Shown piece after piece: positions 11,176 to 63,426 of a stretch of DNA of 64,000 bases; within the stretch, counting starts at the first letter, position 1; each line of letters opens with the position of its first letter. The notes beneath the pieces were generated by a model. That model did not search any database. It was not told the origin of the DNA and saw only the letters and a list, made by a program, of their open reading frames with translations. Source of the stretch: Pecten maximus (Eukaryota); contig NC_047020.1 in assembly GCF_902652985.1 (NCBI RefSeq), positions 27,404,001-27,468,000 on the forward strand, in the 5' to 3' direction. The translations under genes and the position numbers were made by a program.

Positions 11176-12192
11176 GTTGGGGTCTGTGGGCGAAGCCTTA
11201 GTGGTGTCTGTTGGCGAAGCCTTGGTGGAGTCTGTGGGCGAAGCCTTGGTGGAGTCTGTGGGCGAAGCCTTGGTGGAGTCTGTGGGCGAAGCCTTAGTGA
11301 AGTCTGTTCGCGAAGCCTTAGTGGAGTTTGTGGGCGAAGCCTTAGTGAAGTCTGTTCGCGAAGCCTTAGTGAAGTCTTTTGGCGAAGCCTTTGTGGAGTC
11401 TGTAGGCGAAACCTTGGTGGGGTCTGTGGGCGAAGCCTTAGAGGTGTCTGTTGGCGAAGCCTTGGTGGAGTCTGTGGGCGAAGCCTTAGTGGAGTCTGTG
11501 GGCGAAGCCTTAGTGGAGTCTGTGGGCGAAGCCTTTGTGGAGTCTGTTGGCGAAGCCTTAGTGGAGTCTGTTCGCGAAGCCTTAGTGGAGTCTGTGGGCG
11601 AAGCCTTAGTGGAGTCTGTGGGCGAAGCCTCAGTGGAGTCTGTGGGCGAAGCCTTTGTGGAGTCTGTGGGCGAAGCTTTTGTGGAGTCTGTGGGCGAAGC
11701 CTTTGTGGAGTCTGTGGGCGAAGCCTTAGTGGAGTCTGTGGGTGAAGCCTTAGTGGAGTCTGTGGGCGAAGCCTTAGTGGAGTCTGTGGGCGAAGCCTTT
11801 GTGGAGTCTGTTCGCGAAGCCTTAGTGGAGTCTGTGGGCGAAGCCTTAGTGGAGTCTGTGGGCGAAGCCTTAGTTGAGTCTGTTGGCGAAGCCTTAGTGG
11901 AGTCTGTGGGCGAAGCCTTTGTGGAGTCTGTTGGCGAAGCCTTAGTGGAGTCTGTTGGCGAAGCCTTAGTGGAGTCTGTGGGCGAAGCCTTAGTGGGGTC
12001 TGTGGGCGAAGCCTTTGTGGAGTCTGTTGGCGAAGCCTTAGTGGAGTCTGTGGGCGAAGCCTTAGTGGAGTCTGTGGGCAAAGCCATAGTGGAGTCTGTG
12101 GGTAAAGCCTTAGTGGAGTCTGTTGGCGAAGCCTTAGTGGAGTCTGTGGGCAAAGCCTTAGTGGAGACTGTGGGCGAAGCCTTGGTGGAGTC
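11176..12192. repeat. 24-bp minisatellite (GTGGAGTCTGTGGGCGAAGCCTTA)n, left block
   Basis: About 42 tandem copies; produces the (VESVGEAL)n and (TDSTKASP)n ORFs. Confidence 0.97.
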
Positions 12193-12565
12193 TGTCACGA
12201 TGGCATGTATTTATATATATGTATATGTATGTGTTGTGGCTGTTTTGTTTGTGAATCATGTGCGCGTATTTGTATGGCACGAATGTAAGTATGGATAGAG
12301 CGGAAGTGCACGTGCGGAAGTTTTGGAAGCGTCACTACAGGTAAGGTATGCCGTGAGAAATGGCCGTGTTTTGCTTACCTGTAGTCGGGTGACATTATTA
12401 ACGTGGATACAGGCACGAAATTCAGACTGTGATGAGTAACTAATGTTATAAGATTATATTTACTTCACTAATTCAGTTCTTTTAGTGTCTCGTATTCCGG
12501 GTAAATGTATTTCTAGTATATGTTTGAACGTGCGGTCCAATCTGCGTAGCATTGAATAGACATAG

Positions 12566-12692
12566 TGTAGCGGAACTGGACCGGGTCGATCGTCGGCGAC
12601 CAGGTAGCTCAATTGGTAGAGCATCTGGCTAATGTTCGGAGGTCCCGGGTTCGAACCCCGGTCTGGCCGTGCATTTTCCCACTCCTATTACA
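12566..12692 (+). mobile_element. 127-bp TG..CA mini-LTR containing a tRNA-derived sequence (tRNA-bearing TRIM-type solo LTR)
   Basis: TGTAGCGGA...TCCTATTACA flanked by a perfect CATAG duplication (12561-12565 and 12693-12697), with an internal tRNA cloverleaf. Confidence 0.8.
12598..12669 (+). pseudogene. tRNA-like sequence with anticodon AAT (Ile-like) inside the mini-LTR; Pol III A and B boxes intact
   Basis: Acceptor GACCAGG/TCTGGCC (one mismatch), D stem GCTC/GAGC, anticodon arm TCTGG-CTAATGT-TCGGA, T arm CCGGG-TTCGAAC-CCCGG. Confidence 0.7.
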
Positions 12693-13566
12693 CATAGAAT
12701 GCATGTTTATGTATTGTGTGTATGGTGGTATTTTCATATTTAATTTGGTAAAGTTATATTCCAATCTGTATTATAACATATATGGTACCTATATTGCATT
12801 AGTAGTAAATATGTGTATGAATGTCCATATACCGGTAAACTAGGTCAGTACGGAAGCTTTGATGCGCCATATTTGAACTATTGTCCATAGTGCTAGTAGT
12901 GTTAGCAATACTGTTTTATATAAATACTTAGTAATATGAGTGCATATATTAACAATATATAAAGTGAGGAATTGTCAAGTGTTTTGTTGTGTGTGTTTTG
13001 AAGCTTTCCATGTTGGAGTGAGATCGATCCTTGTACCAATCAGGACACTGCAAACCACTACGGCTTCGGCAACAGGACCGGTTATGGACCAAGATCAGCC
13101 ACAGGAAGTTTGTTGGTAATCACAGGCGGGTCATGGTATCCAAAGGCTTAGGGATCGACACAGCAGACATTCTAGTTGGATTGTCTTTGGTTAACTAGCT
13201 ACAAACCTTGGCTGGTAACCATATATACGTAACCTGCGGGATTAGTATATAGTGAGGAGGATCTTTGTGTCAATCACCCTAGATGAGACGCGCGCGGGAG
13301 AACGCTGTGGTCCGGTTCAGCTTCAATGCATTGATTCTTGTTCGTGAGGAGAACTTATACTGTGAGCTGTGACGTACTGTGACGTGCTGTACTGAACTTT
13401 TATATGTGGAACTTTATGGGTTTGTTAGAGGTTCTGAGAGTGAGCATGATTGTGCTTTGGTGTTTATATGCATTTGTATATAATAAATGTAAATATTTCT
13501 TGTACTAGTTCTAGTGTAATTATTTCATTTTCAAATACCTAAATCTGACGCTTGTCTTACGTTACA

Positions 13567-15183
13567 GAGTATGTGGGCGAAGCCTTAGTGGAGTCTGTGG
13601 GCGAAGCCTTAGTGGAGTCTGTTGGCGAAGCCTTGGTGGAGTCTGTGGGCGAAGCCTTAGTGGAGTCTGTGGGCGAAGCCTTGGTGGAGACTGTGGGCGA
13701 AGCCTTGGTGGAGTCTGTAGGCGAAGCCTTGGTGGAGACTGTGGGCGAAGCCTTGGTGGAGTCTGTGGGCGAAGCCTTGGTGGAGTCTGTAGGCGAAGCC
13801 TTAGTGGAGTCTGTGGGCGAAGCCTTAGTGGAGTCTGTAGGCGAAGCCTTAGTGGAGTCTGTGGGCGAAGCCTTGGTGGAGACTGTGGGCGAAGCCTTAG
13901 TGGAGTCTGTTGGCGAAGCCTTGGTGGAGTCTGTAGGCGAAGCCTTAGTGGAGTCTGTGGGCGAAGCCTTAGTGGAGTCTGTGGGCGAAGCCTTGGTGGA
14001 GACTGTGGGCGAAGCCTTAGTGGAGTCTGTGGGCGAAGCCTTGGTGGAGTCTGTAGGCGAAGCCTTAGTGGAGTCTGTGGGCGAAGCCTTGGTGGAGACT
14101 GTGGGCGAAGCCTTAGTGGAGTCTGTGGGCGAAGCCTTGGTGGAGACTGTGGGCGAAGCCTTGGTGGAGACTGTGGGCGAAGCCTTGGTGGAGTCTGTAG
14201 GCGAAGCCTTGGTGGAGACTGTGGGCGAAGCCTTGGTGGAGTCTGTGGGCGAAGCCTTGGTGGAGTCTGTAGGCGAAGCCTTAGTGGAGTCTGTGGGCGA
14301 AGCCTTAGTGGAGTCTGTAGGCGAAGCCTTAGTGGAGTCTGTGGGCGAAGCCTTGGTGGAGACTGTGGGCGAAGCCTTAGTGGAGTCTGTTGGCGAAGCC
14401 TTGGTGGAGTCTGTGGGCGAAGCCTTGGTGGAGTCTGTGGGCGAAGCCTTAGTGGAGTCTGTGGGCAAAGCCTTAGTGGAGACTGTGGGCGAAGCCTTAG
14501 TGGAGACTGTGGGCGAAGCCTTGGTGGAGTCTGTCACTCTGTAGGCGAAGCCTTAGTGGAGTCTGTGGGCGAAGCCTTAGTGGAGTCTGTAGGCGAAGCC
14601 TTAGTGGAGTCTGTTGGCGAAGCCTTGGTGGAGTCTGTGGGCGAAGCCTTAGTGGAGTCTGTGGGCGAAGCCTTTGTGGAATCTGTAGGCGAAGCCTTAG
14701 TGGAGTCTGTGGGCGAAGCCTTAGTGGAGTCTGTAGGCGAAGCCTTAGTGGAGTCTGTGGGCGAAGCCTTGGTGGAGTCTGTGGGCGAAGCCTTGGTGGA
14801 GACTGTGGGCGAAACCTTAGTGGAGTCTGTGGGCGAAGCCTTAGTGGTGTCTGTTGGCGAAACCTTGGTGGGGTCTGTGGGCGAAGCCTTAGTGGAGTCT
14901 GTGGGCGAAACCTTGGTGGGGTCTGTGGGCGAAGCCTTAGTGGAGTCTGTGGGCGAAGCCTTGGTGGAGTCTGTGGGCGAAGCCTTAGTGGAGTCTGTGG
15001 GCGAAGCCTTGGTGGAGTCTGTGGGCGAAGCCTTGGTGGAGACTGTGGGCGAAACCTTAGTGGAGTCTGTGGGCGAAGCCTTAGTGGAGTCTGTGGGCGA
15101 AGCCTTAGTGGAGTCTGTGGGCGAAACCTTAGTGGAGTCTGTGGGCGAAGCCTTTGTGGAGTCTGTGGGCGAAGCCTCGGTGG
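13567..15183. repeat. 24-bp minisatellite, right block
   Basis: About 67 copies of the same unit, with a register break at 14532-14537. Confidence 0.97.
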
Positions 15184-24149: not shown

Positions 24150-26556
24150 AATACATGCAACCATATTATGTCTAGGTATGATAAAACGACAATTTGGTGT
24201 TGAACATTTTTTAAAGGTTCGAAACAAGGCAAACATTCATCCCGATTTTAATTTCCAATTGATATAAATGATTTAGAAGATTTAACTAATCATTAAAGGT
24301 TTTGTCCTTTGTTTTCCAGGTATTGGTACAGAACATATCTTACATATCTAAATGATTATAAGTATCATAACATATATCTACGCGAGTATAAAGATAACAA
24401 CATACATATATCTACGAGATTATATAGATAATAACAAATATCTACGCGTGTATATAGATTATAACACATTTCTATCCGTGTATATAGATTATAACATATA
24501 TATACCCGTGTATATAGATTATAATATATTTCTACCCGTGTATATAGATTATAACATATATCTAACCGTGTATATATATTATAACATATATCTACCCGTG
24601 TATATAGATTATAATACATTTCTACCCGTGTATATAGATTATAATATATATCTACGTGAGTATATAGATTATAACATATATCTACCCGTGTATATAGATT
24701 ATAATATATATCTACCCGTGTATATAGATTATAACATATATCTACCCGTGTATATAGATTATAACATATATCTACCCGTGAATATAGATTATAATACATT
24801 TCTACCCGTGTATATAGATTATAACATATATCTACCCGTGTATATAGATTATAACATATATCTACCCGTGTATATAGATTATAATATGTATCTACCCGTG
24901 TATATAGATTATAACATATATCTACCCGTGTATATAGATTATAATATATATCTACCCGTGTATATAGATTATAACATATATCTACCCGTGTATATAGATT
25001 ATAACATATATCTACCCGTGTATATAGATTATAACATATATACCGTGTATATAGATTATAATATATATCTACCCGTGTATATAGATTATAATATATATCT
25101 ACCCGTGTATATAGATTATAATATATTTCTACCCGTGTATATAGATTATAACATATCTAACCGTGTATATAGATTATAATATATAGCTATCCGTGTATAT
25201 AGATTATAACATATATCCATCCGTGTATATAGATTATAACATATATCTACGCTAGTATGTAAATTATAATATATATCTACCCGTGTATATAGATTATAAC
25301 ATATATCTACGCGTGTATATAGATTATCACATATATCTACCCGTGTATATAGATTATAATATATTTCTACCCGTGTATATGGATTATAATATATATCTAC
25401 CCGTGTATATAGATTATAATAGATTTCTACCCATGTATATAGATTATAATATATATCTACCTGTGTATATAGATTATAATATATATCTACCCGTGTATAT
25501 AGATTATAATAGATTTCTACCCATGTATATAGATTATAATATATATCTACCTGTGTATATAGATTATAACATATATCTACCCGTGTATATAGATTATAAT
25601 ATATTTCTACCCGTGTATATAGATTATAACATATCTAACCGTGTATATAGATTATAATATATAGCTATCCGTGTATATAGATTATAACATATATTCATCC
25701 GTGTATATAGATTATAACATATATCTACGCTAGTATGTAAATTATAATATATATCTACCCGTGTATATAGATTATAACATATATCTACGCGTGTATATAG
25801 ATTATAACATATATTTACCCGTGTATATAGATTATAATATATTTCTACCCGTGTATATATATTATAATATATATCTACCCGTGTATATAGATTATAATAG
25901 ATTTCTACCCGTGTATATAGATTATTATATATATCTACCTGTGTATATAGATTATAACATATATCTACCCGTGTATATATATTATAACATACAGTATATC
26001 TACCCGTGTATATAGATAATAACATATATCTTCCCGTGTATATAGATTATAACATATATCTACCCGTGTATATAGATTATAACATATATCTACCCGTGTA
26101 TATAGATTATAATATGTATCTACCCGTGTATATAGATTATAACATATATCTACCCGTGAATATAGATTATAATATATATCTACCCGTGTATATAGATTAT
26201 AACATTTATCTACCCGTGTATATAGATTATAATATGTATCTACCCGTGTATATAGATTATAACATATATCTACCCGTGTATATAGATTATAATATATATC
26301 TACCCGTGTATATAGATTATAATATATATCTACCCGTGTATATAGACTATAATATAGATCTACCCGTGTATATAGATTATAATATATATCTACCCGTGTA
26401 TATAGATTATAACATATATCTACCCGTGAATATAGATTATAATATATATCTACCCGTGTATATAGATTATAATATATATCTACCCGTGTATATAGATTAT
26501 AATATATATCTACCCGTGTATATAGATTATAATATATATCTACCCGTGTATATAGA

Positions 26557-27332
26557 GAATAATACATACCTTTTTCCATGGAAAAAGGTATGTTTTATTC
26601 AATTTATTGTATTCTTGGTAATAAATCACAGAACATTAATCAAAACAACAATTATAACTTGACAAGAAAAATCAGATTCAAATTTTTAATGTATTGAATT
26701 ATAAACACTTTATAATATTGAAGTTTTTTAAGTCTTTATGAAGTTCATATCTGTCAAATTTATAATGATTTCTAAATAAGTTCCTTTCCAAAGGTGTTTC
26801 TACCATGTCACTGATCAAGGATCAAGAATAAACATTGATTTGAATCAGTCAGAATCACTGTCAATTATCATCCTTGCTCTTTTCCTGCCCCTACATGTAC
26901 TTGCTACATGTACCCCGAGACCCCAATACAACAATTGGTTAACATCGGCTTGTACGACCTCTCCTATTGTAAAGTTTAAGTTATCAATATCCTCGGTTAC
27001 CATGTGTTCCATCTCGGCGAGATATTCTAGCTCTGCAATTCGTGCTGCAAGCGAATTTAAAATCTTCTCTCCCATGTCCTCATTCCTTCGTCTACTCGAC
27101 GCCATGTTGTTTGTTTTGGTTTCGCTGACAACACAGCACCTACGTCAAAACCCGAGAGACCCGAATAGTTTGATGAGACGCAAAATTTAGAGGTGTTCCG
27201 CGAAGAGGGCCAATACAGGGTTTGGGGTGCATTACTGAATCAATAATGCATGGGTAAGGATTACGGATCGGGAGATTTAGCGCCATAATGCATATGCAAA
27301 AAAACCTGTGTTTATTACTAAGTATACAATAA
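26557..27332 (-). mobile_element. 776-bp unclassified insertion flanked by ATAGA direct repeats (Crypton-like or Helitron-like non-autonomous element)
   Basis: The satellite unit is split at ATAGA (26552-26556 and 27333-27337). Perfect 30-bp palindrome at 26564-26593. No TIR, LTR or polyA tail. Confidence 0.7.
26845..27105 (-). CDS. Intronless 86-aa protein of unknown function carried by the insertion
   Basis: Strong start context AACAACATGGCG, non-repetitive and GC-richer than its flanks, amphipathic LNSLAARIAELEYLAEM, C-terminal RGRKRAR plus DSDSD, and two downstream AATAAA signals at about 26595-26610 on the minus strand. Confidence 0.5.
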   Translation of the reverse strand: MASSRRRNEDMGEKILNSLAARIAELEYLAEMEHMVTEDIDNLNFTIGEVVQADVNQLLYWGLGVHVASTCRGRKRARMIIDSDSD

Positions 27333-30004
27333 ATAGATTATAACATATATCTACCCGTGTATATAGATTATAATAGATTTCTACCCGTGTATATAGATTA
27401 TAATATATATCTACCTGTGTATATAGATTATAACATATATCTACCCGTGTATATAGATTATAACATATTTCTACCGGTGTATATAGATTATAACATATCT
27501 AACCGTGTATATAGATTATAATATATAGCTATCCGTGTATATAGATTATAACATATATTCATCCGTGTATATAGATTATAACATATATCTACCCGTGTAT
27601 ATAGATTATAACATATATCTACCCGTGTATATAGATTATAATATATATCTACCCGTGTATATAGATTATAATATATATCTACCCGTGTATATAGATTATA
27701 ATATATATCTACCCGTGTATATAGATTATAATATGTATCTACCCGTGTATATAGATTATAACATATATCTACCCGTGTATATAGATTATAATATATATCT
27801 ACCCGTGTATATAGATTATAATACATTTCTACCCGTGTATATAGATTATAACATATATCTACCCGTGTATATAGATTATAATATATATCTACCCGTGTAT
27901 ATAGATTATAACATATATCTACCCGTGTATATATATTATAACATATCTAACCGTGTATATAGATTATAATATATATCTACCCGTGTATATAGATTATAAC
28001 ATATATCTACCCGTGTATATAGATTATAATATATATATAACCGTGGATATAGATTATAATATATTTCTACCCGTGTATATAGATTATAACATATATCTAC
28101 CCGTGTATATAGATTATAACATATATCTACCCGTGTATATAGATTATAATATATATATAACCGTGGATATAGATTATAATATATTTCTACCCGTGTATAT
28201 AGATTATAACATATATCTAACCGTGTATATAGATTATAACATATATCTACCCGTGTATATAGATTATAACATATATACCGTGTATATAGATTATAACATA
28301 TATCTACCCGTGTATATAGATTATAACATATATCTACCCGTGTATATAGATTATAACATATATCTACCCGTGTATATAGATTATAATATATATCTACCTG
28401 TGTATATAGATTATAACATATATCTATCCGTGTATATAGATTATAACATATATCTACCCGTGTATATAGATTATAATATATATCTACCCGTGTATATAGA
28501 TTATAACATATATCTATCCGTGTATATAGATTATAACATATATCTACGCTAGTATGTAAATTATAATATATATCTACCCGTGTATATAGATTATAATATA
28601 TATCTACCTGTGTATATAGATTATAATATATATCTACCCGTGTATATAGATTATAACAAATATCTACCCGTGTTTATAGATTATAATATATTTCTACCCG
28701 TGTATATAGATTATAATATATATCTACCCTTGTATATATATTATAACATACAGTATATCTACCCGTGTATATAGATAATAACATATATCTTCCCGTGTAT
28801 ATAGATTATTACATATATCTACCCGTGTATATAGATTATAATATGTATCTACCCGTGTATATAGATTATAACATATATCTACCCGTGAATATAGATTATA
28901 ATATATATCTACCCGTGTATATAGATTATAATATGTATCTACCCGTGTATATAGATTATAACATATATCTACCCGTGTATATAGATTATAACATATATCT
29001 ACCCGTGTATATAGATTATAATATATATCTACCCGTGTATATAGATTATAACATATATCTACCCGTGTATATAGATTATAACATATATCTACCCGTGTAT
29101 ATAGATTATAATATATATCTACCCGTGTATATAGATTATAACATATTTCTACCCGTGTATATAGATTATAACATATATCTACCTGTGTATATTGATTATA
29201 ATATATATCTACCCGTGTATATAGATTATAATATATTTCTACGCGTGTATAAATATCTAATCACAGACTAAACACGTGAGTTTTAATCCATTCTTGAATT
29301 TGGTTTTCGACTACCTGGTAGCAGATAGTTAGCAGTTCCACAAAATGGTTTCCACCTTTCCGAAGCACATTTAACAACAAGTCATAGTACGAGAGTTTGG
29401 AATACAACACAGGGATTCTTTTTTCGGTCGTAGTGATCATGACGGCTGGTAGAAGGTGACACATCCCTGTAAATACTGAGCAACTATTCCATTTATTGCA
29501 TAACAATTCATAGCGAACATATCTGACGGTAAATCAGCAGGGAGAAGAGAAAATATATCCAGAAAAAAACCGTGATCTTCCTGTATCGACATAAATTTGA
29601 TCGTGGAAGACATCTAAAAGAAAAGCGACGAAAAGAGGGCCCCTGTAGAATTAATGTATCACTAACATTTCTCCTATTTAAGGGACGCTGAATGAAACAG
29701 TATTTAACATTAATTTGAAACAATGCCAAGATCTTTAATCTCCCATTTCTATCCTTCCTACCCCTCCGTTCTGTACTATGTGTTCTTATTTTAGCGCCCC
29801 TAGAAACAAGTCCTCCATATGACCCTAACTGCTACAAAGACACACTAAGGCATCGCAAACGACACAAATCTCCTCGCTTGCCAACAGCAACTCGTTCCAG
29901 GTAGCTCGTACCTGACTAATAAACAGGAATTATACGTCATTGTATGCCTCGATTGTCCCACTTTGTAAGGTTAAAGTCAAAATTAACAAAAAATTAAAAT
30001 TTAA

Positions 30005-45010: not shown

Positions 45011-46189
45011 AATAATAATTAATTAAATAAGTATTTATATAATAATCCGAATTTTTATGTTAATGACCGTAGCGACCAAACAACAACTGTTCTGAATACA
45101 TATTGACAAAATTAGATGATCTGACCACACGGGGACATTGTACGATGTTTACTTGCCGAAATATACGCATTTTAATTCCAATCCAAACCGCCTCACAGCT
45201 TCGGGTCGCCATCTTTGCTCATATCAAAACATCTGTGCGTTTGAAAGAGTCAGTACTGCAAAGCTTCTAAATGATCTTGTGTTACAAATTTTAGGATTAT
45301 AATAGAAACGAAATATGGATTTTAAAATAATTTGATTTAAATTACTTATGCATTAGGTTAGCGAATCGTAGCAATTATTTACAATGCACTCTAACGTTGT
45401 AATATTCAAAGTGGGTAGTTCCATTTGTGCACAGGTGTGTTAACAAAACATAGTGATTAGGAATACTACTGTGTCCAGCAGGGTGCTGTTTTGGACCCTT
45501 CGTTTTTGTTACAATTTTATATTGACAACACATGGATTGTATCATTTATTTTTGATGCATGGTTTACACATATTCAAGTAACTATGTGATCAATTGTTCA
45601 CATGTTATGTCGCTAAATCTAGACCAGTATAAATACAAATGATGCAGCTGATGATGAGGTTTGTTACATTATTAACAACTAACAGATATACATGTACATG
45701 TATATATATAAAGCACCTATTTCCCCTAAATGACTATAGACTTGTCTGTAATCAATATGCTAATCAAAGTTCAACACAACAGGTAATTCTGGTCGGACTA
45801 TAGTAATACTGTAAAAGTACATATTTTAGCGGTAATATGATTTTAGTGCTTTTCGCGCCTTCCGTTCAATTATGTATCTGTAATTAAATGATATATATTG
45901 GATTATATGACAAGTATTATAAGTGCACCAAATCATCATTTTGCTAATATGTTTAAAAACGGTCGATTACGCCAAGAATAAATACATGGATACTGGTTCA
46001 TAAAACACCATTGTTTATATGTAGCTGAATGTAGATTTTACTGATACTTTACTTATTTTATGGTGTACTGTAGAGTGTCGTGTAGTAAACGCACTGTACA
46101 TTGATTTAATGTCACGAGTACTTAATATTGTCTTTTTACCGTTATGTCTGTGTCTCTCATTATGATCTTAAAGGCGTGAAAAAGAACAA

Positions 46190-48710
46190 ACAAGGGAAGA
46201 GAGCACCTTTAAATAGCAGTCTATTAAGAACCAATAAGGTAAGAGAGTGACATTACATTAAATAGCAATCTAGTAAGGACAAATAAGGGAGGAGAACACC
46301 TTTCAATAGCAGTCTAGTAAGGACAAATAAGGGAGGAGAGCACCTTTCAATAGCAGTCTAGTAAGGACAAATAAGGGAAGACAGCGCATTTAAATAGCAA
46401 TCTAGTAAGGACAAATAAGGGAAGACAGCGCATTTAAATAGCAATCTAGTAAGGACAAATAAGGGAGGAGAGCACCTTTCAATAGCAATCTAGTAAGGAC
46501 AAATAAGGGAAGAGAGAGCATTAAATAGCAACCTATTAAGGACAAATAAGGGAGGAGAGCAACTTTCAATAGCAATCTAGAAAGGACAAATAAGGGAGGA
46601 GAGCGCCTCTAAATAACAATCTAGAAAAGACAAATAAGGGAAGAGAGAGCATTAAATAGCAATATATTAAGGACAAATAAGGGAGGAGAGCACCTTTCAA
46701 TAGCAGTCTAGTAAGGACAAATAAGGGAAGAGAGAGCATTAAATAGCAGTCTAGTAAGGACAAATAAGGGAAGAGAGCGCATTTAAATAGCAATCTATTA
46801 AGGACAAATAAGGGAGGAGAGCGCATTTAAATAGCAATCTAGTAAGGACAAATAAGGGAAGAGAGCGCATTTAAATAGCAATCTAGTAAGGACAAATAAG
46901 GGAGGAGAGCGCATTTAAATAACAATCTAGTAAGGACAAATAAGGGAGGAGAGCGCATTTAAATAGCAATCTAGTAAGGACAAATAAGGGAGGAGAGAGC
47001 ATTAAATAGCAATCTAGTAAGGACAAATAAGGGAAGAGAGAGCATTTAAATAGCAATCTAGTAAGGACAAATAAGGGAGGAGAGCACCTCTAAATAACAA
47101 TCTATTAAGGACAAATAAGGGAGGAGAGCACCTCTAAATAACAATCTATTAAGGACAAATAAGGGAAGAGAGAGCATTAAATAGCAATCTAGTAAGGACA
47201 AATAAGGGAGGAGAGCGCCTCTAAATAACAATCTAGTAAGGACAAATAAGGGAGGAGAGCGCCTCTAAATAACAATCTAGAAAGGACAAATAAGGGAAGA
47301 GAGAGCATTAAATAGCAATCTATTAAGGACAAATAAGGGAGGAGAGCGCATTTAAATAGCAATCTAGTAAGGACAAATAAGGGAGGAGAGCGCCTCTAAA
47401 TAACAATCTAGAAAGGACAAATAAGGGAAGAGAGAGCATTAAATAGCAATCTATTAAGGACAAATAAGGGAGGAGAGCACCTTTCAATAGCAGTCTAGTA
47501 AGGACAAATAAGGGAGGAGAGCACCTTTCAATAGCAGTCTAGTAAGGACAAATAAGGGAAGAGAGCGCATTTAAATAGCAATCTAGTAAGGACAAATAAG
47601 GGAGGAGGGCAACTTTCAATAGCAGTCTAGTAAGGACAAATAAGGGAGGAGGGCACCTTTCAATAGCAGTCTAGTAAGGACAAATAAGGGAGGAGGGCAA
47701 CTTTCAATAGCAGTCTAGTAAGGACAAATAAGGGAGGAGAGCACCTTTACATTAAGCAAATATACTTCTTGCAAGGATAAGTAAGAGAGGAGAGCGCCTC
47801 TAAATAGCAATCTAGTAAGGACAAATAATGAAAATGAGAGCATTTAAATAGATATCTAGTCAGGACAAATAATGGAACAGAGAGCATTTAAAATGCAATT
47901 TGGTAAGGATAAATAAGGGAGGAGAGCGCCTTTAAATAGCATCTAGTAAGGATAAACAAGGGAACATAGCGCATTTATAAAGCAACCTAGTAAGGACAAA
48001 TAACGGAAGGAGCTCCTTTATATAGCAACCTAGTAAGGATAAATAACGGAAGGGGCTCCTTTATATAGCAACCTAGTAAGGATAAATAACGGAAGGAGCT
48101 CCTTTATATAGCAACCTAGTCAGGATAAATAACAGAAGGAGCTCCTTTATATAGCAACCTAGTAAGGATAAATAACAGGAGCTCCTTTATATAGCAACTT
48201 AGTAAGGATAAATAACAGAAGGGGCTCCTTTATATAGCAACCTAGTAAGGATAAATAACAGAAGGAGCTCCTTTATATAGCAACCTAGTAAGGATAAATA
48301 ACAGAAGGGGCTCCTTTATATAGCAACCTAGTAAGGACAAATAACGGAAGGGGCTCCTTTATATAGCAACCTAGTAAGGATAAATAAGAGAAGGAGCTCC
48401 TTTATATAGCAACCTAGTAAGGATAAATAACAGAAGGAGCTCCTTTATATAGCAACCTAGTAAGGATAAATAACAGAAGGGGCTCCTTTAAATAGCAACC
48501 TAGTAAGGACAAATAACGGAAGGGGCTCCTTTATATAGCAAACTAGTAAGGATAAATAACAGAAGGGGCTCCTTTATATAGCAACCTAGTGAGGATAAAT
48601 AACGGAAGGAGCTCCTTTATATAGCAACCTAGTAAGGATAAATAACGGAAGGAGCTCCTTTATATAGCAACCTAGTGAGGATAAATAACAGAAGGGGCTC
48701 CTTTAAATAA
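46190..48710. repeat. 44-bp satellite grading into a related 43-bp variant
   Basis: TAGTAAGGACAAATAAGGGAGGAGAGCACCTTTCAATAGCAGTC up to about 47750; TAGTAAGGATAAATAACGGAAGGGGCTCCTTTATATAGCAACC from about 47990. Confidence 0.96.
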
Positions 48711-57800: not shown

Positions 57801-60800
57801 GGGTTCATAATCTGACAAACATTTACTTCAATGAAGATGTATGAGCTGACTGGATACATAATACTATGATTTACTAAATTCACTTCGTGAAAAGAAGTAC
57901 TGAATTATCAATAAAAGAATTATCATTTTTTGCTTAACTAACATTTTTAAACCTCTTAAATATATCAAATTTATGGTTGTAACATACATAATCATTTGTG
58001 AAATTTAGTGAAGAGTATTGCAGACAAGATCAGTGGTGATTGAACCTTGTTTCGATGTAGAGCGACTGCGAGTATGTTGGTTGACTCCTGGCCAGCCAAG
58101 TCCTGTCGACACCGGAGTTTAGCCTTTAGCTCCCGGCGATAGTCTATATCCCACACAGGATGTCCCTGAAGGAAGCTACAGTTGGCTGCTGCCACAAATG
58201 TTAGGCCACTACAACTACAAAATGAATCCCATAAATCTTTTAGTTTAATAGTTAGATTAAGATTGCTTGTACTATATTTACCTGAAATCAAGTTAATAGT
58301 ATTATTATACATTGACCATAGTTACTGGACATAGCTGACCTATATTATTGTTGACTTGCAATTACCATGCAGACCTGTAGTTAACCTGTAATCACCTGTA
58401 ACAGCTTACCAGTAGTTACCTAATGGTTTACCTTTAAAGTTACTTACCAGTTTACCTGTATAGTTACCACATCAGTTTACCTGTATAGTTACCACACCAG
58501 TTTACCTGTATAGTTACCACACCAGTTTACCTGTATAGTAACCACATCAGTTTACCTGTATAGTTACCACATCAGTTTACCTGTATAGTTACCACACCAG
58601 TTTACCTGTATAGTTACCACACCAGTTTACCTGTATAGTTACCACACCAGTATACCTGTATAGTTACCACACCAGTTTACCTGTATAGTTACCACATCAG
58701 TTTACCTGTATAGTTACCACACCAGTTTACCTGTATAGTTACCACACCAGTTTACCTGTATAGTTACCACACCAGTTTACCTGTATAGTTACCACACCAG
58801 TTTACCTGTATAGTTACCACACCAGTATACCTGTATAGTTACCACACCAGTTTACCTGTATAGTTACCACATCAGTTTACCTGTATAGTTACCACACCAG
58901 TTTACCTGTATAGTTACCACATCAGTATACCTGTATAGTTACCACACCAGTTTACCTGTATAGTTACCACATCAGTTTACCTGTATAGTTACCACATCAG
59001 TATACCTGTATAGTTACCACACCAGTTTACCTGTATAGTTACCGCATCAGTTTACCTGTATAGTTACCACATCAGTTTACCTGTATAGTTACCACACCAG
59101 TTTACCTGTATAGTTACCAAACCAGTTTACCTGTATAGTTACCACATCAGTTTACCTGTATAGTTACCACACCAGTTTACCTGTATAGTTACCACACCAG
59201 TTTACCTGTATAGTTACCACACCAGTTAACCTGTATAGTTACCAAACCAGTTTACCTGTATAGTTACCAAACCAGTTTACCTGTATAGTTACCACATCAG
59301 TTTACCTGTATAGTTACCAAACCAGATTACCTGTATAGTTACCACATCAGTTTACCTGTATAGTTACCACACCAGTTTACCTGTATAGTTACCACACCAG
59401 TTTACCTGTATAGTTACCACACCAGTTTACCTGTATAGTTACCACACCAGTTTACCTGTATAGTTACCACACCAGTTTACCTGTATAGTTACCACATCAG
59501 TTTACCTGTAAAGTTACCACACCAGTTTACCTGTATAGTTACCACACCAGTTTACACACATGTATAGTTACCAAACCCGTTTAAATACATGTATAGTTAC
59601 CACACCAGTTTACATTTATATTTACTTACCAGTTTACCTGTATAGTTACCAAACCAGTTTACCTGTATAGTTACCACACCAGCTTACCTGTATAGTTACC
59701 ACACCAGTTTACCTGTATAGTTACCAAACCAGTTTACCTCTATAGTTACCACACCAGTTTACCTGTATAGTTACCAAACCAGTTTACCTGTATAGTTACC
59801 ACAACAGCTTACCTGTATAGTTACCACACCAGTTTACACACATGTATAGTTACCAAACCCATTTAAATACATGTATAGTTACCACACCAGTTTACATTTA
59901 TATTTACTTACCAGTTTACCTGTATAGTTACCACACCATTTAACCTGTATATTTACCCTACCAGTTTACCTGTATATTTACCTATCAGTTAATCTGTATA
60001 TAAACCTACCAGTTTACCTGTATATAAACCTACCAGTTTACCTGTATATTTACCTACCAGTTTACCTGTATAATTACCTACTAGTTTACCTGAGGTAATC
60101 TGATTTGATTGACCTATATGTGTACAGTACTTACCTGACAGAGTTCACTTGTTTGCTGAAGTAAGAGATTTTGGTGGACTGCTCTGTTGTCATGTCATTG
60201 AGGATGAGAGAGGAATCCTTGGAAGTTGAGATGACAAACATGTCATTAATGCCCAATAGGAGGTGATTTACTGTCAAACCTAAAAACAATCAATATCACA
60301 AGACTTGTCCTTTAAAATAATTTAAATTGACAAAACCTTATTATCAGTAAAAATATGTTGTTTAAATTTAGAATTGATATATATCCCTTTCCAAAATTAT
60401 GCTAAAAGAAGAAGAAAAGCTTAAACCATTCAAGATTTTTCTGTTAGTTGCTGATGTCTGCAAGATGTCTTATCACATTCATATAACTCTCATTATATTT
60501 ATAAATGCTCTCATTACATTGACAACACTCATTACATTTATAACTCTCATTACATTTATAACTCCCATTACATTTATAACTCCCATTACATTTATGACTC
60601 TCATTACATGGACAACACTCATTACATTTATAACTCCCATTACATTTATAACTCTCATTACATTTATAACTCCCATTACATGGACAACACTCATTACATT
60701 TATGACTCCCATTACATTTATAACTCTCATTACATTTATAACTCTCATTACATTTATAACTCCCATTACATTTATAACTCCCATTACATTTATAACTCCC

Positions 60801-63426
60801 ATTACATTTATAACTCCCATTACATTTATAGCTCCCATTAAATTTATAACTCCCATTACATTTATAACACTCATTACATTTATAGCTCCCATTACATTTG
60901 TAACACTCATTACATTTATAAAGCTCTCTCATTACATTTATAACTCCCATTACATTTATAGCTCCCATTACATTTATAGCTCCCATTACATTTGTAACAC
61001 TCATTACATTTATAAAGCTCTCTCATTACATTTATAACTCCCATTACATTTATAGCTCCCATTACATTTATAAAGCTCTCTCATTACATTTGTAACACTC
61101 ATTACATTTATAAAGCTCTCTCATTACATTTATAACTCCCATTACATTTATAACTCCCCTTACATTTATAACTACCATTACATTTATAACTCCCATTACA
61201 TTTATAGCTCTCATTACATTTATAGCACTCATTACATTTATGACTCATTACATTTATGACTCTCATTACATTTATAACTCGCATTACATTTATAACTCCC
61301 ATTACATTTATAACTCTCATTACATTTATAAAGCTCTCTCATTACATTTACAACTCCCATTACATTTATAACTCTCATTACATTTATAGCTCCCATTACA
61401 TTTATAGCTCCCATTACATTTATGACTCATTACATTTATGACTCATTACATTTATGACTCTCATTACATTTATAACTCCCATTACATTTATAAATGCTCT
61501 CATTACATTGACAACACTCATTACACTCATTACATTTATGACTCTCATTACATTTATGACTCTCATTACATTTATAACTCCCATTACATTTATGACTCTC
61601 ATTACATTTATCACTCTCATTACATTTATAACTCCCATTACATTTATAACTCCCATTACATTTATAAAGCTCTCATTACATTTATGACTCTCATTACATT
61701 TATGACTCCCATTACATTTATAACTCTCATTACATTTATAGCTCTCATTACATTTATAACACTCATTACATTTATGACTCATTACATTTATGACTCTCAT
61801 TACATTTATAACTCGCATTACATTTATAACTCCCATTACATTTATAGCTCCCATTACATTTATAGCTCCCATTACATATAACTCCCATTACATTTATAAC
61901 TCCCATTACATTCATAAAGCTCTCTCATTACATTTATAACTACCATTACATTTATAACTCCCATTACATTTATAGCTCCCATTACATTTGTAACACATTA
62001 CATTTATAAAGCTCTCTCATTACATTTATAACTCTCACTACATTTATAACTCCCATTACATTTATAGCTCCCATTACATTTATAGCTCCCATTACATTTA
62101 TAACTCTCATTACATTTATAACTCCCATTACATTTATAACTCCCATTACATTTATAAAGCTCTCTCATTACATTTATAACTCTCATTACATTTATAACTC
62201 CCATTACATTTATAGCTCCCATTAAATTTATAACTCCCATTACATTTATAACTTCCATTACATTTATAGCTCCCATTACATTTATAAAGCTCTCTCCCAT
62301 TACATTTATAACTCCCATTACATTTATAAAGCTCTCTCATTACATTTATAACTCCCATTACATTTATAACTCCCATTACATTTATAACTCCCATTACATT
62401 TATAAAGCTCTCTCATTACATTTATAACTCACATTACATTTATAACTCACATTACATTTATAACTCCCATTACATTTATAACTCCCATTACATGTATAAC
62501 TCTCATTACATTTATAACTCTCATTACATTTATAACTCCCATTACATTTATAACTCTCATTACATTTATAACTCTCATTACATTTATAACTCCCATTACA
62601 TGGACAACACTCATTACATTTATAACTCACATTACATTTATAACTCTCATTACATTTATAGCTCCCATTACATTTATAACTCCCATTACATTTATAACTC
62701 TCATTACATTTATAACTCCCATTACATTTATAACTCTCATTACATTTATAACTCCCATTACATTTATAACTCTCATTACATTTATAACTCTCATTACATT
62801 TAAACTCCCATACATTTATAATCTCCCATTTACATTTATAACCTCTCATTACTTATGACTCCCATTACATTTATAACTTAATCCCATTACATTTATAACC
62901 TCCGCATTAACATTTATACTTCATTACATTTATGACTTCATTACATTTATAAAGCTCTCTCATTACATTTATAACTCCCATTACATTTATGACTCCCATT
63001 ACATTTATGACTCCCATTACATTTATAACTCTCTTTACATTTATAACACTCATTACATTTATGACTCATTACATTTATGACTCTCATTACATTTATAACT
63101 CTCATTACATTGACAACACTCATTACATTTATGACTCTCATTACATTTATAACTCTCATTACATTGACAACACTCATTACATTTATGACTCTCATTACAT
63201 TTATAACTCCTATTACATTTATAAAGCTCTCATTACATTAATAATACTCATTACATTATAGATAAGTCTCATTACATCTAAAACCTTAACAACTAACCAG
63301 CCCGAGTGACAGCCAGATCTGTAACCATCCTCTGATGCTGGTGGAGTGTAGTATTCTTGATGCACACATCAATGTTTTCCCAGGATATTACCCTGCCATC
63401 CTCATGTCCACTTAAAAGGACATTAT
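54840..63426 (-). CDS. WD40-like beta-propeller protein, 5'-partial (possibly F-box/WD type). Exons 63426-63298, 60279-60135, 58214-58046, 57371-57218, 56161-56033, 55030-54840
   Basis: GT-AG introns with chained phases (1,2,0,1,1) give about 305 open codons. WD-like blades include VLLSGHEDGRVISW, HQRMVTDL, FVISTSKDSSLILND, VLASDDIGNLFLY, LVIGAKSGKVFLY and HVNSVAI. Stop TGA at 54840. Confidence 0.85.
55283..55580 (-). mobile_element. CORE-type tRNA-derived SINE (degraded), intronic
   Basis: Minus strand shows a tRNA-like head GCGATAGCAGAGTCAGTTAG, a CORE-like block CCCATGGGCAAGATACTTCACCCTAATTGCTC, and an (ACAA)n tail. Confidence 0.7.
58440..60091. repeat. 25-bp intronic minisatellite
   Basis: (CCAGTTTACCTGTATAGTTACCACA)n. 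Confidence 0.97.
60480..63280. repeat. 18-bp intronic minisatellite
   Basis: (ACTCCCATTACATTTATA)n; source of the ITFITP, GSYKCN and GVINVM ORFs. Confidence 0.97.

What the first reader, a model, noticed from the sequence alone, without database searches (positions are those of the whole stretch)
12561..12697. Miniature LTR built around an almost intact tRNA cloverleaf, with an upstream segment antisense to its own B-box arm
Seen: a 127-bp element with TGTA..TACA ends and a perfect 5-bp TSD (CATAG), which is an integrase signature; it has no SINE-like tail. It contains a foldable tRNA (anticodon AAT) with intact A and B boxes and a TTTT just downstream (12674-12677) that could terminate Pol III. 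Upstream GACCGGGTCGA (12579-12589) is largely complementary to the T-arm TCGAACCCCGGTC. Known: Cassandra TRIMs carry 5S rRNA in their LTRs, and from memory tRNA-bearing non-autonomous LTR elements (Ajax) have been reported in molluscs, so the class may not be new. Inference: a Pol III-driven, integrase-mobilised tRNA mimic in which a longer transcript could switch between the cloverleaf and an alternative hairpin.
Basis: partly seen in the sequence, partly recalled or inferred. Interest (0 to 1): 0.75.

Follow-up and report, generated by a model that had tools for sequence, protein, structure and literature searches.

The report
Helenus solo LTR with end-pairing helix
This 127-base piece is the leftover end-repeat of a tiny gene-less jumping element that carries a tRNA look-alike, a kind described in bivalves in 2024 as Helenus; the only likely news is an unlisted sub-family, a predicted RNA helix joining the two ends of full-length copies, and one hybrid copy that points to its likely Gypsy helper.

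Summary
The sequence is as described, but it is a known kind of element. It is the solo LTR of a TRIM. The genome holds two-LTR copies with a tRNA-His primer site and a polypurine tract, and the LTR is 118/129 identical to the published Helenus-2_PeMa type. The class is Helenus; Ajax carries 5S rRNA.

The family duplicates 4 bp (55 of 68 closed copies; 5 bp in 2), and its anticodon is AGT (108 of 119 scored LTRs). This His-primed internal part is not among the paper's bivalve consensuses.

The antisense segment is real and conserved. In modelled full-length RNA it pairs, together with the PPT, with the T-arm and U5 of the other (5') LTR in 28 of 28 copies. Letters change in compensating pairs between families. 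A cross-family swap test and a joint RNAalifold did not confirm this. One chimeric insertion links the family to a His-primed Gypsy. Pol III transcription is untested. The scan has already reported Helenus solo LTRs on other DNA.

The parts
12561..12565 (+). left target-site duplication CATAG (5 bp; family norm is 4 bp)
   Evidence: empty sites; family tally
12566..12692 (+). solo LTR of a His-primed Helenus TRIM family
   Evidence: two-LTR copies with PBS and PPT; 118/129 to the Helenus-2_PeMa-type LTR
12566..12589 (+).
   Evidence: prediction only
12598..12669 (+). tRNA-like cassette, inferred R region; acceptor mismatch at pair 2
12605..12616 (+). Pol III box A-like motif
   Evidence: sequence; matched in 119 of 137 His-type LTRs; function untested
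12631..12633 (+). anticodon AAT, a minority G-to-A variant of the family's AGT
12648..12658 (+). Pol III box B-like motif (T-loop)
   Evidence: sequence; matched in 108 of 137; function untested
12651..12686 (+). T-arm, trailer and U5 pyrimidine tract; predicted 5' strand of the long-range helix (partner of U3 and of the PPT)
12674..12677 (+). T4 run, candidate leaky Pol III terminator (T4 in 44 and T5 in 82 of 137 LTRs)
   Evidence: termination untested
12693..12697 (+). right target-site duplication CATAG
12193..13566 (+). host sequence: a lone LTR of an unrelated Gypsy-type element (integrase before RT, SCAN domain in relatives), itself sitting in a 24-bp minisatellite

Best explanation
The element is the solo LTR of a gene-less, tRNA-His-primed miniature LTR retrotransposon of the Helenus kind, which is likely transcribed by RNA polymerase III from its tRNA-like cassette and likely copied by a Gypsy helper. 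Shown: full copies are LTR, a 113-127 bp internal part with primer site and polypurine tract, then LTR, with 4-bp duplications. The window copy sits inside another element's LTR. Inferred: (1) Pol III starts at the tRNA in the 5' LTR, sometimes reads through the T4/T5 run and stops at the one in the 3' LTR, so the tRNA body serves as R. (2) In that RNA the PPT plus the first 24 bases of U3 pair with the T-arm, trailer and U5 of the 5' LTR in a helix of about 33 bp. (3) A His-primed Gypsy family in the same genome supplies the proteins. (4) LTR-LTR recombination left this single LTR.
For: Structure: 19 of the first 29 distinct loci hold two or three LTRs around an internal part with a PBS-like start and PPT end. 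There are 299 exact matches to the LTR 3' signature and 177 to the internal signature. The PBS matches the tRNA-His 3' end printed in Kojima's Fig. S2. The TSD is 4 bp in 55 of 68. The LTR is 118/129 identical to an in-genome copy that reads like Helenus-2_PeMa-LTR by eye. Helix: in 15 of 15 His-type and 13 of 13 Lys-type modelled transcripts the PPT/U3 block pairs with the 5' LTR (12-34 expected pairs) and not with its own LTR (0.0). Shuffle z is -2.0 to -6.3 (His), -3.4 to -4.6 (Lys) and -2.9 to -4.5 (type 3), 6 copies each. In a fixed register, PPT position -3 is G-U in His and T-A in types 3 and 5, and position -4 is A-U against G-C. RNAalifold recovers the helix within His and within types 3+5. 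The Gypsy LTR shows none (z 0.24). Helper: L015 joins the TRIM LTR and a full tRNA-His primer copy to the R-U5 of a Gypsy LTR, starting 27 bp after its TATA motif, all inside one TATA duplication. That Gypsy has a His PBS, a 4-bp TSD, RT and integrase, shares the last 10 LTR bases with the TRIM, and carries in U5 a motif found in 38 of 46 His-type and 0 of 43 Lys-primed internal parts.
Against: There are no data on transcription start, strand or polymerase: RNA-run contigs hold the family but cannot show these. The cross-family swap test was not specific: own-family pairing was best in only 2 of 6 rows by energy, and the normalised matrix was also mixed. RNAalifold on a joint four-family MAFFT alignment did not recover the helix (the alignment is out of register). 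The helix is weak in type 5 (3 of 6 copies with z below -2.5) and absent in type 1 (0 of 6) and type 4 (1 copy). Lys-type copies leave PPT positions -2 and -5 unpaired in the fixed register, and a common His variant breaks -5 in 11 of 42. The families share ancestry, so the compensating changes are few independent events. The helper link rests on one chimera, and another copy (L007) abuts a gag-protease piece of a different Gypsy. His/Lys hybrids also exist, so co-packaging may not be helper-specific.
Confidence: 0.8

Rival explanations
1. Same element, but the U3/T-arm and PPT/U5 complementarity is a neutral relic of an old fold-back copying event plus purine/pyrimidine composition, with no role in replication.
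For: Fold-back junctions through the T-loop occur in this family (L065, L066). U3 12579-12591 also resembles the tRNA's own 5' end (10 of 13 by eye). The swap test was not specific and type 1 lacks the helix.
Against: Block-wise shuffles keep composition, yet z reaches -6.3. Both sides change together between families. By eye the pairing persists with other letters in oyster and pearl-oyster consensuses such as Helenus-2C_CGi and Helenus-4_PiIm (not computed).
Confidence: 0.3
2. One reading: a longer transcript across one LTR switches between the cloverleaf and a local U3/T-arm hairpin, which may govern termination at the 3' LTR.
For: An isolated LTR folds with U3 on the T-arm (about 24 expected pairs). 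The hairpin would end just before the T run, and during synthesis the 3' LTR could form it locally.
Against: In full transcripts the 5' LTR outcompetes the local partner in 28 of 28 copies. The pairing extends into the PPT, which lies outside any single LTR. A Pol III start at the tRNA excludes U3 from a solo-LTR transcript.
Confidence: 0.12
3. The cassette is a working tRNA gene or tRNA mimic (Ile-AAT) kept for the host.
For: ARAGORN and Rfam score it as a tRNA. Kojima does not exclude function for a few families.
Against: AAT is a minority change from AGT, and there is an A-C mismatch in the acceptor stem. The window copy carries a further anticodon-stem change. The Helenus-2_PeMa type is not among the bivalve families listed as possibly tRNA-coding in Fig. 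S1.
Confidence: 0.03
4. An ordinary tRNA-derived SINE, or a separate 5-bp-TSD (Copia/BEL-mobilised) class.
For: tRNA head with A and B boxes; this copy has a 5-bp duplication.
Against: Fixed length (107 of 137 LTRs are 127 bp), two-LTR copies with PBS and PPT, and 4-bp TSD in 55 of 68.
Confidence: 0.01

Closest known systems
Helenus-2_PeMa and Helenus-1_ArIr (scallop Helenus, TRIMp3; Kojima 2024, PMC10886601; main text parts 1-4 and 6 of 6, supplement parts 1, 5-7 and 9-11 of 11 read)
   Same: tRNA-like cassette with AGT anticodon in a 127-130 bp LTR, TG..CA ends, 4-bp TSD, PBS and PPT, solo LTRs. The window LTR is 118/129 identical to the in-genome Helenus-2_PeMa type, which has 164 LTR-PBS junctions in this genome.
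   Different: The published pair is tRNA-Lys-primed with a 90-93 bp internal part. This family is tRNA-His-primed with a 113-127 bp internal part (66/125 to the Lys type) that is in none of the bivalve consensuses read. The paper's text has 0 hits for 'hairpin' or 'inverted' and names animal helpers only by PBS likeness.
Helenus-3, -4 and -5_PeMa (His-primed scallop Helenus)
   Same: His PBS, the internal GAACCTGGGTT motif and a stem-loop before the PPT. Types 3 and 5 show the same helix register.
   Different: Longer LTRs with a different U3. Internal parts are only about 56-60% identical to this family's.
Cassandra TRIM (plants; PMC7215508, passages read)
   Same: Pol III-type promoter inside the LTR, tandem arrays, and a predicted 'super-hairpin' with the LTRs paired and PBS near PPT.
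   Different: 5S rRNA rather than tRNA. The passages read describe LTR self-complementarity, not a PPT/U5 register with compensating changes.
Ty1 CYC5/CYC3 pairing (PMC3592414, passages read)
   Same: A long-range 5'-3' RNA pairing needed for reverse transcription. A functional analogy only.
   Different: An autonomous Pol II element with no sequence relation; its pairing was tested by experiment, whereas the one here is predicted.
Ajax
   Same: TRIM with a small-RNA promoter; 5-bp TSD like this one copy.
   Different: 5S-derived, nemertean and Leu-primed. This element is tRNA-derived with a 4-bp family TSD.

Membership tests
Helenus (animal) | tRNA-like sequence with boxes A and B inside the LTR | tested here: met
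   box A in 119 and box B in 108 of 137 LTRs
Helenus (animal) | two LTRs around a short non-coding internal part, total under 1 kb | tested here: met
   about 370-bp elements
Helenus (animal) | PBS complementary to a tRNA 3' end | tested here: met
   matches tRNA-His in Fig. S2; 36 of 46 copies carry a 1-base insertion in it
Helenus (animal) | PPT before the 3' LTR | tested here: met
Helenus (animal) | 4-bp TSD | tested here: met
   55 of 68 exact and 6 with one mismatch; the window copy is one of 2 exceptions with 5 bp
Helenus (animal) | mobilised by a Gypsy element | tested here: inconclusive
   one TRIM/Gypsy chimera, shared PBS type, TSD length and LTR end
TRIMp3 | transcribed by RNA polymerase III | not testable with these tools
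   only assembled contigs available; also unvalidated for Helenus in the paper
Helenus-2_PeMa (exact family) | tRNA-Lys PBS and 90-bp internal part | tested here: not met
   His PBS and a different internal part; sister family
Ajax / Cassandra | 5S rRNA-derived promoter in the LTR | tested here: not met
   Rfam finds tRNA and no 5S
tRNA-derived SINE | starts at the tRNA head, simple-repeat tail, variable-length TSD | tested here: not met
   32 bp precede the tRNA; fixed length, no tail, 4-bp TSD
Repbase/Dfam entries after 2024 | identity to a deposited consensus | not testable with these tools
   libraries not available; only the paper's supplement was compared

The most novel reading that the evidence does not exclude
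One lineage of bivalve Helenus has kept, with compensating changes, an RNA helix that zips the polypurine tract and U3 onto the tRNA T-arm and U5 of the other LTR, closing the genome into a loop so that a tRNA body works as the R region for strand transfer. His-primed families also share a short near-palindromic motif with the U5 of a Gypsy helper, which would act as the dimer or packaging signal, and a fossil chimera records the two RNAs in one particle. This would give the first named helper and cis-signals for an animal TRIMp3.
Probability: 0.4. Interest if true: 0.55.

Novelty: new member of a known kind. Interest (0 to 1): 0.35.

Why it matters
As a class it is published, so the element itself adds one more Helenus family and a reminder that such LTRs are mis-called as tRNA genes (ARAGORN calls this one tRNA-Ile). 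The paper states that it is not known how a TRIM's dependence on its helper is maintained. The predicted end-joining helix, the shared motif and the chimera give three specific, testable answers in a 330-nt RNA that is easy to probe in vitro.

Tried and rejected
Relatives outside the genome: the pattern scan gave 1 metagenome locus (L100, an oyster-type LTR with a degraded internal part), 0 in viral contigs and 0 in prokaryote genomes, so cross-species covariation could not be computed.

Cross-family swap of helix halves: not specific. RNAalifold over four families: helix not recovered.

Idea that the 5-bp duplication is 4 bp plus a leftover G from the PPT: it fits the letters (both 5-bp cases end in G) but is disfavoured, because G follows the TSD in only 7 of 82 sites while G ends it in 34 of 82. 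A rare 5-bp stagger is more likely, and the empty site cannot separate the two.

Idea that L015 or L007 are autonomous elements with a tRNA LTR: rejected. L015 is a short chimera, and L007 has no 5' LTR or PBS in 9.9 kb upstream. More TRIM/Gypsy chimeras: 5 LTRs are followed by a full primer copy, and only 1 continues into the Gypsy LTR.

RNA runs: contigs cover the family, but the window's flanks are almost uncovered and no listed piece bridges this copy's junctions; this says nothing about expression. Absence of T4 runs in internal parts (1 of 104 copies) was judged weak, since it reflects about four independent sequences.

Full report
OBSERVATION. The 127-bp element (12566-12692), its TGTA..TACA ends, the CATAG duplication, the tRNA-like cassette, the T4 run and the upstream antisense segment are all at the stated places. 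The insertion is real. It lies inside a lone 1.4-kb LTR of another element (12193-13566), and 3 of 7 paralogous loci fetched show the empty site with a single pentamer; the other 4 are a more distant subfamily. Taken alone the fold is unremarkable: z -1.26 for the LTR, and 29 of 2000 shuffles match the U3/T-arm duplex.

WHAT IT IS. The genome (918 Mb) holds many near-identical copies. Among the first 29 distinct loci, 19 carry two or three LTRs around an internal part that begins with a primer-binding site and ends in a polypurine tract. Exact-match counts are 299 for the LTR 3' signature and 177 for the internal signature; both are lower bounds. Of 85 His-type elements parsed, 17 were open at one end and set aside. 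Of the 68 closed ones, 55 have an exact 4-bp duplication, 6 have 4 bp with one mismatch, 2 have 5 bp (the window copy and L166), 1 has 5 bp with one mismatch and 4 have none. Target sites favour TA-NNNN-TA (82 sites, His and Lys types pooled). Paired LTRs differ by a median of 3 bases in 127 (32 elements, 3 with none), so the family was active recently. The anticodon is AGT in 108 of 119 scored LTRs and AAT in 5. The 3' CA end was required by my parser, so its constancy is not independent evidence.

KNOWN CLASS. This is Helenus (Kojima 2024, PMC10886601; I read main-text parts 1-4 and 6 of 6 and supplement parts 1, 5-7 and 9-11 of 11). Helenus elements are TRIMs with a tRNA-like LTR, a 4-bp TSD in animals, and 51 families in bivalves. 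The window LTR is 118/129 identical to an in-genome copy that matches Helenus-2_PeMa-LTR by eye. That Lys-primed family has 164 LTR-PBS junctions here, and relatives of the paper's scallop types 1, 3, 4 and 5 are present too, so the host is inferred to be a scallop-type bivalve. The window's family has a His-type primer site (Fig. S2) and an internal part found in none of the bivalve consensuses read (string searches 0 hits, which line breaks could defeat). It is an unlisted sister family. Repbase and Dfam could not be checked. Earlier scan notes report Helenus solo LTRs in flatworm, fungal and other genomes (untested by me); none matched this sequence.

THE ANTISENSE SEGMENT. An exact GACCGGGTCGA or its wobble variant stands in 101 of 137 His-type and 61 of 68 Lys-type LTRs. 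I folded the RNA that Pol III would make from real two-LTR copies, from tRNA +1 in the 5' LTR to the T run in the 3' LTR. The PPT and first 24 bases of U3 pair with the T-arm, trailer and U5 of the 5' LTR in 15 of 15 His and 13 of 13 Lys copies (12-34 expected pairs) and with their own LTR in none (the first 16 copies of each family were tried and length-mismatched ones dropped). Against shuffles that keep PPT and U3 composition, z is -2.0 to -6.3 (His), -3.4 to -4.6 (Lys), -2.9 to -4.5 (type 3), -0.5 to -2.9 (type 5), -1.4 (type 4, one copy) and about 0 (type 1); 6 copies per family. In a register anchored on the LTR's first base, PPT -3 is G-U in His (39 of 42) and T-A in types 3 and 5 (13 of 14, 4 of 5), and -4 is A-U (38 of 42) against G-C (13 of 14, 3 of 5). 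RNAalifold recovers 33 pairs within His (no two-sided changes) and 15 within types 3+5. By eye, oyster and pearl-oyster consensuses keep the pairing with other letters (not computed).

AGAINST THE HELIX. The swap test favoured the own family in only 2 of 6 rows, and the four-family alignment did not yield the helix. Lys copies leave -2 and -5 unpaired in the fixed register. The changes are few independent events. Kojima's text has no 'hairpin' or 'inverted'. Five searches bearing on prior art listed no paper whose title or abstract describes this helix for Helenus. A super-hairpin is predicted for Cassandra (PMC7215508, passages), and Ty1 needs a 5'-3' pairing (PMC3592414, passages). The idea therefore has precedent.

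THE HELPER. L015 reads TRIM LTR, then a full tRNA-His primer copy, then the last 374 or so bases of a different, 681-bp LTR starting 27 bases after its TATA motif, all within one TATA duplication. This is what a mis-aimed second strand transfer between co-packaged RNAs would leave (inference from standard LTR reverse transcription). That LTR bounds a 7.7-kb element with a His PBS, a 4-bp TSD, and RT and integrase domains in Gypsy order (L052; RNase H seen in a second copy, L054). It ends in the same 10 bases as the TRIM LTR (E 0.19 on its own). Its U5 carries GAACCTGGGTT, present in 38 of 46 His-type internal parts and 0 of 43 Lys-primed ones; its role is a guess. The link rests on one event. 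Hybrids between TRIM families (L067, L113, L146) and a junction to another Gypsy's gag-protease region (L007) show that template switching is not exclusive. PMC6934838 and PMC13570524 (passages) show that helpers are often untraceable and that TRIM chimeras are common. PMC12859917 (passages) only cites Helenus.

MECHANISM, BY STATUS. Shown: TRIM anatomy, integrase-type 4-bp duplications, recent activity, nesting. Predicted: the long-range helix. Inferred: Pol III start at the tRNA, leaky termination at the first T run (T4 in 44, T5 in 82 of 137), Gypsy help, and solo-LTR formation by recombination. RNA-run contigs contain the family but cannot give strand, start or polymerase. A working tRNA is unlikely: there is an acceptor mismatch and the anticodon is a minority variant.

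VERDICT. A real element of a published class: a new member of Helenus, with two modest extras (the end-joining helix and a candidate helper). Interest 0.35.

Noticed in passing
window 12193-13566; L269 934-8462: The host sequence is a lone LTR of a Gypsy-type element whose relatives have a Leu-type PBS and one 1511-aa frame with gag, SCAN and integrase before RT. This layout is recalled as Gmr1-like. L269's two LTRs are 99.9% identical.
   Followed up: partly
L015 1501-2016 (G000:C14): Chimera of TRIM LTR, full tRNA-His primer copy and Gypsy R-U5 within one 4-bp duplication.
   Followed up: yes
L065, L066, L068: LTRs followed by a long tRNA-His primer copy and, in some, an inverted piece of the element; they look like fold-back reverse-transcription products.
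   Followed up: partly
L067 1383-1997: Three-LTR hybrid with a His-type internal part and a second internal part with a third primer type (Arg-like, recalled) not seen in the paper's scallop list.
   Followed up: no
L146/L208, L113, L095: Elements whose two LTRs, or LTR and internal part, come from different Helenus families.
   Followed up: partly
internal parts of His, Lys, type 3 and type 5 elements (alignment A1, columns 133-154): A stem-loop just before the PPT with a C-G/G-C swap in 9 against 9 of 19 sequences.
   Followed up: no
L228, L240 and G000:C3:6469462, C5:11296923: More diverged Lys-primed LTR ends that may be further unlisted Helenus families.
   Followed up: no
L061 451-3234: Frames that by eye resemble a DIRS-like element (RT and tyrosine recombinase; recalled, not scanned) directly upstream of a Gypsy gag-pol.
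   Followed up: no
window 11178-15177, 24367-29251, 46182-48709, 58426-63277: The window is rich in long minisatellite arrays. The 24-bp array gives long repetitive open frames that are probably not genes.
   Followed up: no
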